This document shows positions 46,495 to 51,229 of a stretch of DNA of 64,000 nt, in pieces. This DNA is from Escherichia phage Mt1B1_P17, in the sequence record NC_052662.1; one strand, given 5' to 3'. Both the position numbers and the translations under genes were made by a program. How positions within the stretch are numbered: position 1 is the first letter of the stretch; each line of letters starts with the position of its first letter. The notes under the pieces were generated by a model, which had not been told where the DNA came from, did no database searches, and saw nothing but the letters and a program-made list of their open reading frames with translations.

Positions 46495-46520
46495 ACGAAA
46501 AAACCCCGCCGAAGCGAGGT
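46495..46520 (-). terminator. Rho-independent terminator after tape measure gene
   Basis: Minus-strand CCTCGC-TTCG-GCGGGG followed by TTTTTTCG. Confidence 0.6.
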
Positions 46521-46526
46521 ATTTTA

Positions 46527-48515
46527 TTAACCACCAGTGTTAGATTGTCCACTTAGAGTTGAAAGAGATAAACGTTGGAAAATGCTATTTCCGCTATTTT
46601 GAATTCTTGCATCAAGAATATTTCCAAACTCGGAAGAAGGACTGATCGTAACTTTGATAAGATCACTTGGTATTGCTACCGTATTCTCAACAACAGGTTG
46701 ATTACGAGCCAAACTTACGTTAGGTGTATAGGCTGATTCACGTAAATCTTCAAGAGGATTACCAAATCCAAAAGCACGTGTCCTTGTTTGTTCTCCTCTC
46801 CACATACGACCAATATCTTGTGTATCAATACCTGTTAAATTGTACAACCAATCTGCTACAGGATTGCTGTCTCCACTTTGCGTTGCCTCGTATGCTTTTT
46901 GTGCCATAGATTTATTAGGATCTGTGTTGTCTCCGAATGTATCTGGGAATGTTTCTTTAAGCCAATTGGTAAAAGATCCGAAACCATCTCCCAATTCTTT
47001 AGCAAAACCTCCTAATTGAACTGTTGTCTTACCGAGTTCTTCACCTAAATCTTTGGCAAACTGATCTAGCACTTTAACGTTATCCAACCAAGAATCATCT
47101 TTAGGTAACGCTTTCACAAAACCCTCTAAGAAGTGGTTCTGCATACCTTGACCTACAAGCTGAACTGTTGCAGCAAAACGAGTAAACTCCTTAGAAGCAT
47201 CTATTTGTTCTTGAGTTAATGTTGCACCTGTTCTTTGAAGCATTTTCAATACTTCATTGTATCCTTCGCCGTTTTTACTAAACATTCGTTGGTAGTGCAT
47301 AAGGTCGTCACCAAGGTTTTCAAGAAGTCGCCCGATTTGAGCAGAGTTCATACCTCGACGTTCACCTTCATTAACAGTAGCCTGAATAAAAGCTAAAGGA
47401 TCGTTCTGTAAAGGTTTAAGCTGTTCTGGATTCCATCCAAACAAGTTCATAATGTCATTTATGCCATTATCACCGCCTTTCCACTTCCCTTCTTTCTCAT
47501 TCCATTTTGAGGCTAAAACTGTATTACCAAGACGTTCACGAACGTCTTTAATATTATCTATTGACTTAATAATATTTGCAGAGTCTACACCGTTCTGTTC
47601 ACCCCAAGCTGTCATTGCCAAAATAGCGTTGGCGTTTGTCTGAACGTTTTCAGCACCACGACTTACAAGTTTAATTCTTTCGTTAGTATTCATCAACGTG
47701 TTACCAACTACAGAACCACCTGCAAACAGCCCAGCACCTATTAAAGAGGATGCAATCATGCGTGGATTAAGACCTGCTGCACCTTCTTTTAATTGTCCAT
47801 ATCGACGATCACGATCACGTTTTTGTTGAGCTAATTCACGCTTACGGTTGCGTTCTATATCTCTAAGTTCACGATTTCGCATACGTATACGCATTTTAGC
47901 TTCTGCTTCTAGCTCTCTACGAATACGGCGACGACCGCGAACCTCGTCTTCTATTTCAGCATTCTTTTCACGATGAGATCTGCGTAAGGCATCTAACTGG
48001 TGAGCAAGAGCTTGGTTCATACGTTGAAGAGTTATTTCACCCTTTTTGTATTGCTCTACAGCTTTACCCATAACGTCTCTAGCTTCTTGCATAGCGCCAG
48101 GACTAGCTTTACTAAATGCTCTTGCTCGATAGTTAAAGTTCTGCAAACGAAGATTACCTAAATCTTCCCTACGTGCTGCTGCTTTAGCTTCGCGTTCAGC
48201 AGCTTTACGAGCTTTTTCTTCTTCTCTTCCTTGCGGGGTTTTAGGAGTTCTAGGTCTACCAGATCCGCCTACAGGAGCACCCGCTCCAGCGGGAGTAGGT
48301 GCTCGCATAGGTTTTTGACTTTGAGTTTGAGCTTTCTTAAGTTCACGCTCAATCTCTTTCATTTGTTGTCTAAACTTGGTCATGTTCATAGTGGGTTGCA
48401 TTTTATTTGCAAACTTCTGAACACTCAACACGGCATCTTTTGCTTCCTTGAGACTGTTCTTGTCCACCTTAAACGTAACCACGTTACTAATTTTGGAGGC
48501 GTTAATTTCTAACAA
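46527..48515 (-). CDS. Tail tape measure protein
   Basis: 662 aa; helical low-complexity repeats (ARKAAEREAKAAARRE), hydrophobic segment; follows chaperone pair. Confidence 0.55.
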   Translation of the reverse strand: MLEINASKISNVVTFKVDKNSLKEAKDAVLSVQKFANKMQPTMNMTKFRQQMKEIERELKKAQTQSQKPMRAPTPAGAGAPVGGSGRPRTPKTPQGREEEKARKAAEREAKAAARREDLGNLRLQNFNYRARAFSKASPGAMQEARDVMGKAVEQYKKGEITLQRMNQALAHQLDALRRSHREKNAEIEDEVRGRRRIRRELEAEAKMRIRMRNRELRDIERNRKRELAQQKRDRDRRYGQLKEGAAGLNPRMIASSLIGAGLFAGGSVVGNTLMNTNERIKLVSRGAENVQTNANAILAMTAWGEQNGVDSANIIKSIDNIKDVRERLGNTVLASKWNEKEGKWKGGDNGINDIMNLFGWNPEQLKPLQNDPLAFIQATVNEGERRGMNSAQIGRLLENLGDDLMHYQRMFSKNGEGYNEVLKMLQRTGATLTQEQIDASKEFTRFAATVQLVGQGMQNHFLEGFVKALPKDDSWLDNVKVLDQFAKDLGEELGKTTVQLGGFAKELGDGFGSFTNWLKETFPDTFGDNTDPNKSMAQKAYEATQSGDSNPVADWLYNLTGIDTQDIGRMWRGEQTRTRAFGFGNPLEDLRESAYTPNVSLARNQPVVENTVAIPSDLIKVTISPSSEFGNILDARIQNSGNSIFQRLSLSTLSGQSNTGG

Positions 48516-48535: not shown

Positions 48536-48754
48536 TTAAACAAGTTTCTTAAACAAATCTGACATTTTATTTGTCTGGTTTTGATGTTTTCTCTTTATTG
48601 AAGTGTCTTTAACATACATGGCTTCAACATACTCTTCGTATGTTAAATACTCATATAGTTTTAAAAGATAATCTACACCGTAGTTATCCAATGTTTTCAG
48701 TGTTTCCGAGGTATCTTTAACGACTTTGCAAAGAATAACCTCATACCACTTCAA
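48536..48754 (-). CDS. Tail assembly chaperone, frameshift extension ORF
   Basis: In -1 frame relative to 48802..49284 and open back to the slippery site. Confidence 0.4.
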   Translation of the reverse strand: MKWYEVILCKVVKDTSETLKTLDNYGVDYLLKLYEYLTYEEYVEAMYVKDTSIKRKHQNQTNKMSDLFKKLV

Positions 48755-48801
48755 AGTAAGGGTTTTCGTTGCTATGTCGATAGCATGTTCAATCGCAGGT
48801 G

Positions 48802-49284
48802 TTAATTTGCTGCTAAACTCGTCATCGCCTGAAGCTGTGTGAACAGTTTTCCGAAACCTCGTTTGAAAAAAGGGCCGTAGTTTACCTCCAGAACTTTAGC
48901 AGTAAGATCTAACACTAGTTCTGGGTGAGCCATAAATAATTCATCAAAATTTTCTGCAACGTTATAACCGTCTTGAGTATAAACCTCATCTAAAATTTTA
49001 CGCAAAAAGACAGTTAAATTCTTTTCTTCCAAACCTGCAAAAAGTTGGATCAATGCCATAGCAATACGTGACTCAAGGTCTTCGTCTGCGGACATTGTTG
49101 CTGTGCTATACATAGTCATAGGAACAACCAGAACACTACCTAATTCTGGAATCCTGTCAAACACTTTAGATGGACTCCACTTCATAATACGGAAAGTAAC
49201 AGATCTGTTTCCATCTAACGGAATCTCAACTACTTCTTCTGGTCGAGCATATTTTTGAATTGTGTTATCTTGTTCTTGTGACAT
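48802..49284 (-). CDS. Tail assembly chaperone
   Basis: 160 aa acidic protein directly upstream of tape measure; contains slippery site 17 codons before stop. Confidence 0.5.
   Translation of the reverse strand: MSQEQDNTIQKYARPEEVVEIPLDGNRSVTFRIMKWSPSKVFDRIPELGSVLVVPMTMYSTATMSADEDLESRIAMALIQLFAGLEEKNLTVFLRKILDEVYTQDGYNVAENFDELFMAHPELVLDLTAKVLEVNYGPFFKRGFGKLFTQLQAMTSLAAN
48865..48874 (-). other. Candidate -1 programmed ribosomal frameshift slippery site
   Basis: Minus-strand CCC TTT TTT C, heptamer T_TTT_TTC in zero frame; -1 frame has no stop until 48536. Confidence 0.45.
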
Positions 49285-49297
49285 ATTTTCCTCTCTA

Positions 49298-49324
49298 ATG
49301 ATAAAAAGGGCATTTCTGCCCTTT
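49298..49324 (-). terminator. Terminator/attenuator hairpin after tail tube gene
   Basis: Minus-strand AAGGGCA-GAA-ATGCCCTT followed by TTTATC. Confidence 0.45.
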
Positions 49325-49329
49325 ATTTA

Positions 49330-49809
49330 TTATTGAATTGTCAGAGCAGAGATTGAGTTAAGGGTGCTCAAACCTACACCAACTTCATTACGCAGAAGGC
49401 TTGCATCTTTAAGACCAATAACCCATTGGTTCTCTGTAATCATTTCGCCAATAGTATCTTCAGGCTGACTTTGAATCCATCCAATCGTGCTAATGTAATA
49501 GCCACGTGGGTCTTCTAAATAAACACTGAACGCTACTTGACGAGTAGAATACATTGTTTGTGCATATGTTGCAAGTACTTCGTTAGCTGGAGATGTGCGT
49601 TGCAAAGACATTGTGAGTGTTCCCAAACGGTTACGACTCAAAGCTAGTGAAACGTCGCCATCAGTCCCTGCATAAGGGTTGATAATATCGTTAGATTTAG
49701 CAATAACGATTTTAGTATCAGCCGCAAAACCCCACGGTTCCCAACCACCTAATGAAAGGATAACTTGAGATGGGTCGTAGGCCATTACGCCAGTAAGCAT
49801 TTTATCCAT
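49330..49809 (-). CDS. Tail tube protein
   Basis: 159 aa; between sheath and chaperones. Confidence 0.45.
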   Translation of the reverse strand: MDKMLTGVMAYDPSQVILSLGGWEPWGFAADTKIVIAKSNDIINPYAGTDGDVSLALSRNRLGTLTMSLQRTSPANEVLATYAQTMYSTRQVAFSVYLEDPRGYYISTIGWIQSQPEDTIGEMITENQWVIGLKDASLLRNEVGVGLSTLNSISALTIQ

Positions 49810-49855: not shown

Positions 49856-51229
49856 TTAGTTTGCAGTACGGTTAGTCAGGACGTTGACCTGAACTTTAAC
49901 GTAATGGAAGAAGCCAGCGTAAACATATTCAATCTTCATCCCATCTACCAGACGAGCATTGATTTGCGCATCGGTCATATCGGCACGAGAAGGAATATAA
50001 ACAATAGGTTTCAGATCGACACGCAAACCAGTCTCTTCAGAAGTAACAACTTCATTAGCGATGGAACCGTTGAGGATACCTACTTGGATCGGGTTAGCCA
50101 GAACAGCTTGTCGAATCAAAGCCAGACCGTTTGAAGTAGCACGAACACCACCACCCAGCATAGACTGTTGTTTAAACAGTGTAAACAGTGATTCTTCTGT
50201 GCGAGCTTTAAACCACAAAGCATGAACAACATAGTCAACAAAGAAACCGCTAACCATCAATCCATCACGATAGAACAGAGTTCCATGCTCTTTACGATAG
50301 ATGTTGCCGTTCTGTTGAACAATATTGTTTTCCGAAGTCTGATCCAGTTTCTCGATCTCTACACCTACCAGTGTTTTACCGTGAAGAGTAGTTAAACCAG
50401 GTTGACGAGAACAGATTGCACCAACAACTGCTGCTTCTGGGAATACAGAATCTGCATCGGTCATCCACAAAGCAAAGCAAGTGTTATTATAACCGAGGTC
50501 ATTCAGTCGTTCCAGAACGTTATCTTCTGCTTTCGTTTTAATTCCAGGTTCAGAGCTAGAGAAGAAGTAAACTTTATCATTCTCTTCTACCCATGCAGCC
50601 AAAGCTAGAACATCTTCTGTTTCATGGGAATCTGAAAGGGTCCAGAACCAGCTACTATCGATATCATGCAGAGCAGCAATATCTTCCGTAATAGCATTAG
50701 CATAGACAGTTTCTTGAGTGAAACCTGTGCTGTCAATAGAACCAAACTTACCTTCTACTGGAGTGAAAGTCATTGCAGCGCCGTTGTTAGCTACTGTAAA
50801 CAGTGGGCCATAAACAAGATCTGCATTGATCATTTCAGTCAGACCAACTACAATCTCTTGTGCAGTTGCAGTGTCATCAGCAATGAATTTAAATTCTTTT
50901 TTCTTGGTACCATTTTTGATGGTAATTGTGTAAGTTGCACTATCTTCTACGATTGGAGTTAGAGTAAAGTTTGTAACTTCACGCTTACCAACCATGACTT
51001 GATCTGGTGGGAACAAACCGTTAAACAGTTTGACTGCCATAATATACGCTGGATCATTTAATCCATAACCTGCTTCCAAAAGTGCATCGGAAGAAGAGTA
51101 ATATTGAATCGCTTCGCCAGTTACGTTCTGACCTGTAAGGATCAGGGGAATATCGAACTGGGTTTCACGAATTGATGTAGCACCATACAGTAAAGTTACG
51201 GTTGCTACCTTTTCACGAAAAGTTGCCAT
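49856..51229 (-). CDS. Tail sheath protein
   Basis: 457 aa; immediately upstream of tube gene. Confidence 0.5.
   Translation of the reverse strand: MATFREKVATVTLLYGATSIRETQFDIPLILTGQNVTGEAIQYYSSSDALLEAGYGLNDPAYIMAVKLFNGLFPPDQVMVGKREVTNFTLTPIVEDSATYTITIKNGTKKKEFKFIADDTATAQEIVVGLTEMINADLVYGPLFTVANNGAAMTFTPVEGKFGSIDSTGFTQETVYANAITEDIAALHDIDSSWFWTLSDSHETEDVLALAAWVEENDKVYFFSSSEPGIKTKAEDNVLERLNDLGYNNTCFALWMTDADSVFPEAAVVGAICSRQPGLTTLHGKTLVGVEIEKLDQTSENNIVQQNGNIYRKEHGTLFYRDGLMVSGFFVDYVVHALWFKARTEESLFTLFKQQSMLGGGVRATSNGLALIRQAVLANPIQVGILNGSIANEVVTSEETGLRVDLKPIVYIPSRADMTDAQINARLVDGMKIEYVYAGFFHYVKVQVNVLTNRTAN

What the first reader, a model, noticed from the sequence alone, without database searches (positions are those of the whole stretch)
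48536..49284. Programmed -1 frameshift joining two tail assembly chaperone ORFs upstream of the tape measure gene
The 160-aa chaperone ORF contains CCC TTT TTT C seventeen codons before its stop (slippery heptamer T_TTT_TTC in the zero frame). I translated the -1 frame manually and it stays open from that site into the downstream 72-aa ORF. This is the conserved chaperone frameshift arrangement found upstream of tape measure genes in many tailed phages.
Basis: partly seen in the sequence, partly recalled or inferred. Interest (0 to 1): 0.45.

Follow-up and report, generated by a model that had tools for sequence, protein, structure and literature searches.

The report
Unannotated tail chaperone frameshift in phAPEC8-like phage
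This E. coli phage very probably makes a short and a long form of its tail-assembly helper protein by letting a few ribosomes slip back one base on CCCTTTTTTC; this is a textbook phage trick, real here but not annotated in the public genomes I examined.

Summary
The window is a phAPEC8-like Phapecoctavirus with its tail genes on the minus strand: sheath, tube, a 160-aa tail assembly chaperone (TAC; 48802-49284, Pfam PF21822), a 72-aa "hypothetical" ORF, then the tape measure gene. CCCTTTTTTC (48874-48865) gives two overlapping in-phase -1 heptamers, C_CCT_TTT and T_TTT_TTC. The -1 frame stays open for 111 codons to TAA at 48538-48536. Either heptamer yields the same 249-aa fusion. One detail is wrong: 20 sense codons, not 17, follow TTC.

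A heptamer in one genome is weak evidence (about 13% by chance). The comparison with relatives is strong:
- All 57 related loci checked keep T_TTT_TTC in phase and the -1 frame open.
- More distant relatives carry other slippery motifs at about the same spot (C_CCT_TTT alone, G_GGA_AAG, A_AAT_TTT).
- Conserved -1-frame residues lie upstream of any possible start codon.
- No in-frame fusion was found.

No downstream RNA structure was found. An upstream GGAGGT, 9-13 nt before the heptamers, is a candidate dnaX-like stimulator.

Verdict: a real, lambda G/GT-type programmed -1 frameshift. None of the 19 GenBank records whose feature tables I read annotates it. It is a new member of a known kind and of low interest.

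The parts
48802..49284 (-). TAC short form ('G'): 160 aa, 18.2 kDa, ATG start at 49284, TAA stop at 48804-48802. GAGG Shine-Dalgarno at 49293-49290.
   Evidence: Pfam PF21822 Phage_TAC_15, E=1.3e-23, 84.3 bits against a cut-off of 22. phrog_3840 'tail assembly chaperone', E=2.8e-55. Annotated as tail assembly chaperone in phAPEC8 NC_020079 gp106.
48865..48874 (-). Slippery run CCCTTTTTTC. It holds two overlapping in-phase -1 heptamers: C_CCT_TTT (48874-48868) and T_TTT_TTC (48871-48865). Both give the junction ...NYGPFF|QTRFRK...
   Evidence: T_TTT_TTC is invariant in 57/57 related loci (32 distinct sequences), while neighbouring synonymous sites vary. H_HH.U_UU.Y motifs are among the most efficient -1 heptamers measured in E. 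coli (PMC4066793).
48536..48865 (-). -1-frame extension ('T' part of the long form): 109 codons plus TAA at 48538-48536. Proposed long form = complement(join(48536..48865,48865..49284)), 249 aa, 28.8 kDa.
   Evidence: Aligns through the junction with 12 relatives; R143 F144 R145 A168 A172 L178 W180 are nearly or fully invariant. Codon-position differences 0.36/0.21/0.58 downstream of the G stop. phrog_16039, E=1e-44.
48536..48754 (-). The 72-aa TTG-start ORF, annotated in public records as a separate hypothetical protein (phAPEC8 gp105). I read it as the C-terminal part of the long form, not a gene of its own.
   Evidence: No Shine-Dalgarno in the 20 nt upstream (tagcaacgaaaacccttact). The first -1-frame start codon falls anywhere from codon 29 to codon 84 in relatives.
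48884..48889 (-). GGAGGT, a perfect Shine-Dalgarno-like hexamer inside the G coding sequence (CTG GAG GTA). It lies 12-13 nt 5' of T_TTT_TTC and 9-10 nt 5' of C_CCT_TTT. Candidate dnaX-like 5' stimulator (inferred).
   Evidence: Duplex with the anti-SD is -10.6 kcal/mol, in the top 0.3% of 18-nt windows of the tail module. 16 of 22 distinct family sequences reach -5.9 or lower, against 7.7% of background windows. The Glu codon is GAG in 23 of 27 family sequences, against 22% GAG in the window's tail genes. The element is absent in CB7, CR9 and KB57.
46527..48515 (-). Tape measure protein gene (662 aa, TTG start, GAGG 8 nt upstream). It begins 20 nt after the long form's stop.
   Evidence: phrog_16051, E=0, full length. 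Annotated as tail length tape measure protein in phAPEC8 gp104.
49330..49809 (-). Tail tube gene immediately upstream (159 aa).
   Evidence: PF11681 KPP10_Orf10 and phrog_280. Annotated as tail tube in SKA64.
49305..49324 (-). Terminator-like hairpin plus T-run between the tube gene and the chaperone gene. It would lower transcription of the chaperone and tape-measure genes relative to sheath and tube.
   Evidence: Annotated as a putative terminator in phAPEC8.

Best explanation
This is a programmed -1 ribosomal frameshift of the lambda G/GT type.

Mechanism. Most ribosomes translate the chaperone gene from 49284 to its stop at 48802 and make the 160-aa short form. A minority slip back one base while the tRNAs sit on C_CCT_TTT or T_TTT_TTC (48874-48865). 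tRNA-Pro re-pairs CCU->CCC and tRNA-Phe re-pairs UUU/UUC->UUU. These ribosomes then read the -1 frame to 48536 and make a 249-aa long form. The long form has the same N-terminal 140 residues, a poorly conserved linker, and a conserved C-terminal domain of about 80 aa. The '72-aa ORF' is the tail end of this long form.

Stimulators. No 3' RNA structure is needed or evident. An upstream GGAGGT may pair with 16S rRNA and raise the slip rate, as in dnaX.

Function, by analogy with lambda. The shared N-terminal part coats the tape measure protein. The C-terminal domain of the rare long form recruits tail tube subunits. Neither form ends up in the virion.

What is shown and what is inferred. Shown: sequence anatomy, homology, and conservation of site, phase and -1 coding. 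Inferred: that slippage occurs, its ratio, the SD effect, and the binding partners.
For: Anatomy:
- In-phase heptamers and an uninterrupted 111-codon -1 frame.
- Position between the tube and tape measure genes.

Family: the upstream ORF passes Pfam's TAC model PF21822.

Conservation of the site:
- 13 GenBank relatives at 23-75% identity and 44 IMG/VR loci all keep the arrangement. T_TTT_TTC is present in 57/57 loci.
- The three wobble positions (CCT or TGT, TTT, TTC) are invariant across 32 distinct sequences, although the first codon's amino acid changes from Pro to Cys and flanking synonymous sites vary.

Site turnover in outgroups, with the -1 frame still open 71-97 codons past the G stop:
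- KLEP7 has only C_CCT_TTT.
- Barba30A has G_GGA_AAG, lambda's own heptamer (identity with lambda is from my own knowledge).
- Vibrio S4-7 has A_AAT_TTT.
- Kremar has G_GTT_TTT.
- Three of these five (G_GGA_AAG, A_AAT_TTT, C_CCT_TTT) obey the tandem-slippage rule yet lack long homopolymer runs.

The -1 frame codes for protein:
- The third codon position varies most (0.58 against 0.36 and 0.21).
- Conserved residues precede the first possible start codon. In KB57 that start lies at codon 84 of 126.

No in-frame fusion: all full-length tblastn hits shown need 2 pieces, and 41 database homologs are about 160 aa G-only proteins.

Heptamer efficiency: H_HH.U_UU.Y motifs are in the top class in E. 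coli, and both U_UU.U_UU.C and C_CC.U_UU.U exceed 0.1% without stimulators (PMC4066793).

Related families: the same arrangement was argued for Vandenendeviridae and Andersonviridae (PMC12846349).

Lambda model for function: PMC5009743.
Against: - No direct observation of the fusion protein. No proteomic or reporter data were found for this phage group.
- In a single genome the heptamer could be chance (about 13%).
- One of the two patterns used to collect the IMG/VR loci contained the ..[CP]FF peptide, so that sample is partly biased towards keeping Phe-Phe. It is not biased towards the exact codons.
- Conservation of GGTTTCG just downstream, and of the SD-like GAG-GT, is confounded by protein constraint in both frames.
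- The T-domain structure could not be modelled with confidence (pLDDT below 50).
- No solved structure matched.
Confidence: 0.9

Rival explanations
1. Transcriptional slippage. RNA polymerase adds one extra U on the T6 run, so that a subset of mRNAs encodes the fusion in a single frame. The ribosome does not shift.
For: The site contains a T6 homopolymer. The wobble T that extends the run is conserved, which would also suit a run-length requirement. Poly-T motifs and non-ribosomal routes have been discussed for T4-like TACs (Vladimirov et al. 2022, as cited in PMC12846349).
Against: Productive slippage in bacteria is described for runs of about 9 A or T (PMC5009743); T6 is short. Relatives have replaced the site with G_GGA_AAG, A_AAT_TTT or C_CCT_TTT. 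These obey the ribosomal X_XXY_YYZ rule in phase but have no long homopolymer.
Confidence: 0.04
2. There are two separate genes. The 72-aa ORF (48536-48754) is translated on its own from the TTG start, as annotated in GenBank, and the slippery run is incidental.
For: Public records annotate it this way. TTG starts are used in this phage, for example by the tape measure gene.
Against: There is no Shine-Dalgarno upstream of the TTG. There is no ATG, GTG or TTG in the -1 frame for 37 codons after the slip site, yet that stretch holds conserved residues (R143 F144 R145 A168 A172). In relatives the first start falls at codon 29 to 84, inside the conserved domain. The heptamer's wobble bases are invariant.
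Confidence: 0.04
3. Artefact or decay. A homopolymer sequencing error or a real frameshift mutation split one gene, or the downstream ORF is non-functional.
For: Homopolymer runs are error-prone. Only sequence data are available.
Against: The same two-frame layout is found in 57 loci from independent isolates and metagenomes. It is also seen in 63 records that are 99% or more identical across the region. None of the hits shown is in-frame. The zero-frame 20-aa tail and its stop are conserved within the subfamily. The -1 frame shows purifying selection.
Confidence: 0.02

Closest known systems
Phage lambda gpG/gpGT tail assembly chaperone frameshift (Levin et al. 1993; Xu, Hendrix & Duda 2004; reviewed in PMC5009743)
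   Same: Two overlapping ORFs lie between the major tail/tube gene and the tape measure gene. There is a -1 slip on an in-phase heptamer near the end of the first ORF, and the downstream ORF has no start signal. No 3' RNA stimulator is evident here; from my own knowledge, lambda needs none either. The result is a short abundant form and a rare long form. An outgroup of this family (Rheinheimera Barba30A) uses G_GGA_AAG, which is lambda's heptamer (my own knowledge).
   Different: The heptamer is different (T_TTT_TTC / C_CCT_TTT). The phage has a contractile tail. There was no significant match to any solved structure or to any NCBIfam model. A possible 5' SD-like stimulator is present. The product ratio and binding partners are untested here.
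TAC-N/TAC-NC -1 frameshift proposed for Vandenendeviridae (Pseudomonas phage Adele/PAK_P1 group) and Andersonviridae (PMC12846349, Dec 2025)
   Same: These are related myovirus lineages with the same sheath-tube-TAC-small ORF-tape measure synteny. The downstream ORF is routinely mis-annotated as a hypothetical protein. A poly-T slip motif sits near the 3' end of TAC-N, and the -1 frame is open in all genomes. The Vequintavirinae sequences here (TGT TTT TTC) contain that paper's GTTTTT motif, and Kremar has G_GTT_TTT.
   Different: That paper analysed the TAC locus of Vandenendeviridae and Andersonviridae only. In Stephanstirmvirinae the G is replaced (CCT TTT TTC), which creates a second canonical heptamer. 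Homology between the two TAC families was not tested directly here.
Phage P2 E/E+E' and other myovirus chaperone frameshifts
   Same: A contractile-tailed phage with the frameshifted chaperone pair between the tube and tape measure genes, and a T-rich slip site.
   Different: No sequence similarity was tested. P2's efficiency is reported as 2-3 times lambda's (PMC5009743). The efficiency here is unknown.
E. coli dnaX -1 frameshift (5' Shine-Dalgarno-like stimulator)
   Same: An internal SD-like sequence lies about 10-13 nt 5' of the heptamer. That this is the spacing stimulating -1 shifting in dnaX is my recollection of Larsen et al. 1994, not checked here.
   Different: dnaX also has a strong 3' stem-loop and A_AAA_AAG, and shifts about 50% of ribosomes. 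Here there is no 3' structure and the SD-like element is not universal in the family.

Membership tests
Lambda G/GT-type tail assembly chaperone frameshift cassette (Xu et al. 2004) | Two ORFs located between the major tail (tube) gene and the tape measure gene | tested here: met
   Order is tube 49330-49809, G 48802-49284, T 48536-48865, TMP 46527-48515.
Lambda G/GT-type tail assembly chaperone frameshift cassette (Xu et al. 2004) | Second ORF overlaps the first in another frame, with an in-phase slippery sequence inside the overlap | tested here: met
   The -1 frame is open from 48895. C_CCT_TTT and T_TTT_TTC at 48874-48865 are in zero-frame phase.
Lambda G/GT-type tail assembly chaperone frameshift cassette (Xu et al. 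2004) | Downstream ORF lacks its own translation start signals | tested here: met
   No start codon for 37 -1-frame codons after the slip site. No SD before the TTG. The start position is not conserved (codon 29-84) in relatives.
Lambda G/GT-type tail assembly chaperone frameshift cassette (Xu et al. 2004) | Arrangement and slip site conserved among relatives despite sequence divergence | tested here: met
   57/57 loci keep T_TTT_TTC. Four outgroups carry other slippery motifs at or near the same spot. All keep the -1 frame open.
Lambda G/GT-type tail assembly chaperone frameshift cassette (Xu et al. 2004) | Fusion protein is actually made, at a low fixed ratio to the short form | not testable with these tools
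   Needs a reporter assay, western blot or MS. No such data were found in the literature searches.
Lambda G/GT-type tail assembly chaperone frameshift cassette (Xu et al. 2004) | Both forms required for tail assembly and absent from virions; G binds the tape measure protein, T binds the tube protein | not testable with these tools
   Inferred by analogy only (PMC5009743).
Pfam PF21822 Phage_TAC_15 (tail assembly chaperone) | Whole-protein score above Pfam's gathering cut-off | tested here: met
   84.3 bits against a cut-off of 22, E=1.3e-23, residues 29-143 on profile positions 3-125 of 127. All 41 database homologs carry PF21822.
TAC structural fold (e.g. HK97 chaperone, PDB 2OB9) | Significant structural similarity of the G domain to a solved TAC | tested here: inconclusive
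   AF2 model has mean pLDDT 67 (G domain partly above 90, T domain below 50). Foldseek against PDB gave no hit with E below 0.4; 2OB9 appears only at E about 3, TM 0.39-0.48. The PDB sequence-profile search gave nothing below E=0.09.
dnaX-type 5' Shine-Dalgarno stimulator | SD-like sequence about 10-14 nt 5' of the heptamer, conserved and required for efficiency | tested here: inconclusive
   GGAGGT at 48889-48884 has the right spacing and is a strong match (top 0.3%). It is present in 16 of 22 distinct family sequences and absent in some. The signal is confounded by the Leu-Glu-Val coding sequence. The requirement is untestable here.
3' RNA stimulator (stem-loop or pseudoknot) type -1 PRF signals | Stable, conserved structure 5-9 nt downstream of the heptamer | tested here: not met
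   MFE z-score is -1.0 for the 105 nt downstream. All windows scanned that start 5 or 7 nt downstream had z above -0.8, and no window at spacers 3-8 reached z of -1.5 or lower. Only a 5-bp invariant hairpin appears in the alignment fold, with no covariation. Pseudoknots were not explicitly searched.

The most novel reading that the evidence does not exclude
The cassette is more elaborate than a plain lambda-type site. It has two overlapping efficient heptamers (C_CCT_TTT plus T_TTT_TTC) that give the same product, driven by a dnaX-like internal Shine-Dalgarno (GGAGGT) in place of any 3' RNA structure. Across the wider rV5/phAPEC8 supergroup the slip site has been swapped repeatedly (T_TTT_TTC, C_CCT_TTT, G_GGA_AAG, A_AAT_TTT, G_GTT_TTT) within a few codons of one position. 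This would make the group a natural series for studying how frameshift efficiency is tuned. The phage's own tRNA-Pro(UGG) (62446-62522) might also affect slippage at CCU.
Probability: 0.3. Interest if true: 0.3.

Novelty: new member of a known kind. Interest (0 to 1): 0.2.

Why it matters
The main value is to annotation. None of the 19 GenBank records of Stephanstirmvirinae, Vequintavirinae and outgroups whose feature tables I read carries a joined CDS. They list the long form's C-terminus as a separate 43-122-aa hypothetical protein with inconsistent starts, or omit it. About 360 phage records hold a homolog of this chaperone. Many of these phages are therapy or biocontrol candidates. Correct annotation adds an essential tail-assembly protein and removes a spurious gene.

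Biologically, the finding extends the conserved G/GT frameshift to another large group of contractile-tailed phages. It also gives a clear example of slip-site turnover with the function kept. It does not change how tail assembly or frameshifting is understood.

Tried and rejected
- Downstream stimulatory structure. I folded 105 nt after the heptamer (z=-1.0) and scanned spacers 3-8 nt with lengths 25-100 nt; nothing was significant. An alignment fold of 5 Stephanstirmvirinae sequences gave only an invariant 5-bp hairpin with no covariation. A CGAAA...TTTCG hairpin in some Vequintavirinae starts 1 nt after the site and is absent in rV5. Rejected as a conserved stimulator. The conserved GGTTTCG is better explained by dual-frame coding (GF in frame 0, RFR in frame -1).
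- Single-genome statistics. The length of the -1 frame past a stop is not discriminating, because many neighbouring genes lie in the -1 frame. The heptamer alone has about a 13% chance.
- In-frame G+T fusions or annotated joins. None among the tblastn rows shown or in the 5.8-billion-protein search.
- Function of the T domain. No Pfam or NCBIfam hit; PHROGs lists it as 'unknown function'. The PDB profile search had nothing below E=0.09. The AF2 model of the T part has low confidence because the alignment had no depth there. Foldseek against PDB was non-significant.
- Literature. No paper in the library links phAPEC8, phi92, rV5, PVP-SE1, Stephanstirmvirinae or Vequintavirinae with this frameshift.
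Full report
**What the window is.** A 1-kb query around the finding is 99.6-100% identical to many Escherichia phages of the genus Phapecoctavirus (phAPEC8, ESCO37, ESCO5 and others; subfamily Stephanstirmvirinae). The genes here lie on the minus strand:
- tail sheath, 49856-51229 (phrog_205, DUF3383);
- tail tube, 49330-49809 (PF11681, phrog_280);
- a 160-aa ORF, 48802-49284;
- a 72-aa TTG-start ORF, 48536-48754;
- the tape measure protein, 46527-48515 (phrog_16051, E=0);
- baseplate genes.

The 160-aa ORF is a tail assembly chaperone. It scores 84.3 bits on Pfam PF21822 Phage_TAC_15 against a cut-off of 22, and 2.8e-55 on phrog_3840.

**Checking the observation.** On the minus strand the sequence reads ...GTT CTG GAG GTA AAC TAC GGC CCT TTT TTC AAA CGA GGT TTC GG... 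in the zero frame (V L E V N Y G P F F K R G F G).
- CCCTTTTTTC occupies 48874-48865.
- A slip at either heptamer gives the same protein...NYGPFF|QTRFRK... (my reading).
- The -1 frame is open from 48895 to TAA at 48538-48536. That is 111 codons from 48871, straight through the 72-aa ORF.
- The fusion is 249 aa and 28.8 kDa, against 160 aa and 18.2 kDa for the short form.
- The one error: 20 sense codons follow TTC before the stop, not 17.

**Is it more than chance?** In this genome alone the evidence is thin. In-phase heptamers occur at 0.43% per codon in the window's ORFs. That gives about 13% for at least one in the 31-codon overlap. A downstream ORF lies in the -1 frame a third of the time. 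The case rests on comparison with relatives.

**Comparative evidence.** I fetched 13 GenBank relatives spanning Stephanstirmvirinae, Vequintavirinae (rV5, Seunavirus, Mydovirus, Certrevirus, Henunavirus, Avunavirus) and a Vibrio phage. They are 23-75% identical to the fusion protein. I also fetched 44 IMG/VR loci.
- Every locus has the chaperone ORF, an in-phase heptamer in the overlap, and a -1 frame open for 71-91 codons past the chaperone stop. One locus is cut off by its contig end.
- T_TTT_TTC is present in 57 of 57 loci, which give 32 distinct sequences.
- The codon before it is CCT (Pro) or TGT (Cys) and never another synonym. The two Phe codons are always TTT then TTC.
- By contrast, the neighbouring Tyr, Gly and Val codons vary synonymously.
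- Caveat: one of the two collection patterns contained the ..[CP]FF peptide. That favours keeping Phe-Phe, but not the exact codons.

More distant relatives are more telling:
- Aeromonas 2L372X keeps T_TTT_TTC.
- Pseudaeromonas KLEP7 has lost it (TTT TCC) but keeps C_CCT_TTT.
- Rheinheimera Barba30A has G_GGA_AAG four codons downstream. This is lambda's own heptamer (from my own knowledge).
- Vibrio S4-7 has A_AAT_TTT.
- Pseudomonas Kremar has the non-canonical G_GTT_TTT.
- All keep the -1 frame open for 71-97 codons past the chaperone stop.

Replacement of one slippery heptamer by another at or near the same place is what selection for frameshifting predicts.

**The -1 frame is coding, and not from its own start.**
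- The fusion proteins align through the junction. R143, F144, R145, A168, A172, L178 and W180 are nearly or fully invariant.
- Downstream of the chaperone stop, pairwise differences per codon position are 0.36, 0.21 and 0.58 in Stephanstirmvirinae and 0.32, 0.28 and 0.61 in Vequintavirinae. This is the signature of purifying selection on the -1 frame.
- In the window there is no ATG, GTG or TTG in the -1 frame for 37 codons after the slip site. The TTG at 48754 has no Shine-Dalgarno sequence.
- In relatives the first start codon lies anywhere from codon 29 to codon 84, inside the conserved domain in KB57, CB7, SNUABM01 and CR9.
- Public annotations accordingly give the small ORF inconsistent starts, with lengths from 43 to 122 aa, or omit it.
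- The overlap region in the -1 frame is a poorly conserved linker, Gly/Ser-rich in Vequintavirinae. That fits a segment which must also encode the short form's C-terminus.

**No in-frame version.**
- tblastn with the 249-aa fusion against 50,697 phage records found 357 records. Every full-length match shown needed two pieces.
- A search of 5.8 billion proteins returned 41 homologs. All are G-only proteins of 158-175 aa covering 57-64% of the query.
- None of the 19 GenBank records whose feature tables I read carries a joined CDS.

**Stimulators.** I found none.
- The 105 nt after the site fold no better than shuffles (z=-1.0).
- Windows starting 3-8 nt downstream and 25-100 nt long are unremarkable.
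- The alignment fold of five Stephanstirmvirinae sequences gives only an invariant 5-bp hairpin without covariation.
- Pseudoknots were not explicitly modelled.

Upstream there is a candidate stimulator.
- CTG GAG GTA contains GGAGGT (48889-48884), 12-13 nt before T_TTT_TTC and 9-10 nt before C_CCT_TTT.
- Its predicted pairing with the 16S 3' end (-10.6 kcal/mol) is in the top 0.3% of 18-nt windows of the tail module.
- 16 of 22 distinct family sequences have an SD-like element there (at or below -5.9 kcal/mol), against 7.7% of background windows.
- The Glu codon is GAG in 23 of 27 family sequences, although GAG is only 22% of Glu codons in the window's tail genes.
- This matches the dnaX arrangement, where I recall a spacing of about 10-14 nt stimulating -1 shifts (Larsen et al. 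1994; from memory, not checked here).
- The element is missing in CB7, CR9 and KB57, and it is confounded by the conserved Leu-Glu-Val peptide. I mark it as inferred.

**Efficiency expectation.** Sharma et al. (PMC4066793) place H_HH.U_UU.Y motifs, which include both heptamers here, among the most efficient -1 motifs in E. coli. They list U_UU.U_UU.C and C_CC.U_UU.U among those giving more than 0.1% shifting without stimulators. A low-percent yield, as in lambda (G:GT about 30:1; PMC5009743), is therefore plausible. It has not been measured.

**Rivals.**
- Transcriptional slippage on T6 would give the same protein. However, productive slippage is described for runs of about 9 (PMC5009743). The outgroup sites G_GGA_AAG, A_AAT_TTT and C_CCT_TTT obey the ribosomal rule and have no long homopolymer.
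- Independent initiation of the 72-aa ORF is contradicted by the conserved coding sequence upstream of any start.
- Sequencing error or pseudogenisation is contradicted by the identical layout in dozens of independent genomes and metagenomes.

**Mechanism of action (inferred).** By analogy with lambda (PMC5009743), the shared N-terminal domain binds the tape measure protein. The T domain of the rare long form recruits tube subunits. Both forms leave before the tail is complete. A terminator-like hairpin between the tube and chaperone genes (49324-49305) would further lower expression of the chaperone and tape-measure genes relative to sheath and tube.

**Structure.** An AF2 model of the fusion, using an alignment with depth only over the G part, has mean pLDDT 67. 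Parts of G exceed 90 and the T part is below 50. Foldseek against PDB gave no significant match. The HK97 chaperone 2OB9 appears only at E about 3. A profile search of PDB sequences found nothing below E=0.09. Membership in the TAC family therefore rests on the Pfam and PHROG profile hits and on gene order, not on fold.

**Comparison with what is known, and novelty.** The phenomenon is the classic conserved tail-chaperone frameshift (Xu, Hendrix & Duda 2004). A December 2025 paper argued computationally for the same thing, with a GTTTTT motif, in the related Vandenendeviridae and Andersonviridae. It noted the same routine mis-annotation (PMC12846349). I found no paper in the library that describes the frameshift for phAPEC8, phi92, rV5, PVP-SE1, Stephanstirmvirinae or Vequintavirinae. 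It is thus a new, well-supported member of a known kind. Its main value is to annotation, with modest added interest from the double heptamer, the possible SD stimulator and the slip-site turnover.

**Verdict.** Observation confirmed, with one miscount. Interpretation supported, with confidence about 0.9 that a -1 ribosomal frameshift produces a 249-aa long form. Interest 0.2.

Noticed in passing
window 62209-63650 (- strand): Cluster of 8 phage-encoded tRNA genes (Met, Ile, Pro-UGG, Gln, Gly, Thr, Asn, Ser). tRNA-Pro(UGG) decodes the CCU in the P-site codon of the C_CCT_TTT heptamer. No tRNA-Phe lies in the window.
   Followed up: no
window 49305-49324 and 46503-46520 (- strand): Terminator-like hairpins bracket the chaperone and tape-measure genes. 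One lies between the tube and chaperone genes, the other just after the tape measure gene.
   Followed up: partly
window 48946-48952 (- strand): A second in-phase heptamer, A_AAT_TTT (GAA AAT TTT), lies inside the chaperone gene. A -1 slip there meets a stop codon immediately and would only truncate the protein.
   Followed up: partly
window 48513-48515 (- strand): The tape measure gene starts with TTG, 8 nt after a GAGG, and only 20 nt after the long form's stop codon.
   Followed up: no
GenBank records OP562383.1, MG0656xx, MH252123.1: Records named 'Acinetobacter phage', 'Campylobacter phage' and 'Klebsiella phage' are 99-100% identical in this region to E. coli Phapecoctavirus or Vequintavirus phages. 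This suggests mislabelled hosts or contaminating coliphages in those projects.
   Followed up: no
L011 2300-3370 (CB7), L061 2126-2764 (Barba30A), L063 2383-3291 (KLEP7): In some relatives extra ORFs sit between the chaperone's -1-frame ORF and the tape measure gene, one of them on the opposite strand in Barba30A. The chaperone-to-tape-measure adjacency is therefore not absolute.
   Followed up: no
window 48846-48852 (GGTTTCG, - strand) and homologous positions in L003-L014: GGTTTCG, 13-19 nt after the heptamer, is almost invariant across subfamilies. It encodes Gly-Phe in frame 0 and Arg-Phe-Arg in frame -1. Dual coding constraint is the likely cause, but a role in frameshifting was not excluded.
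   Followed up: partly
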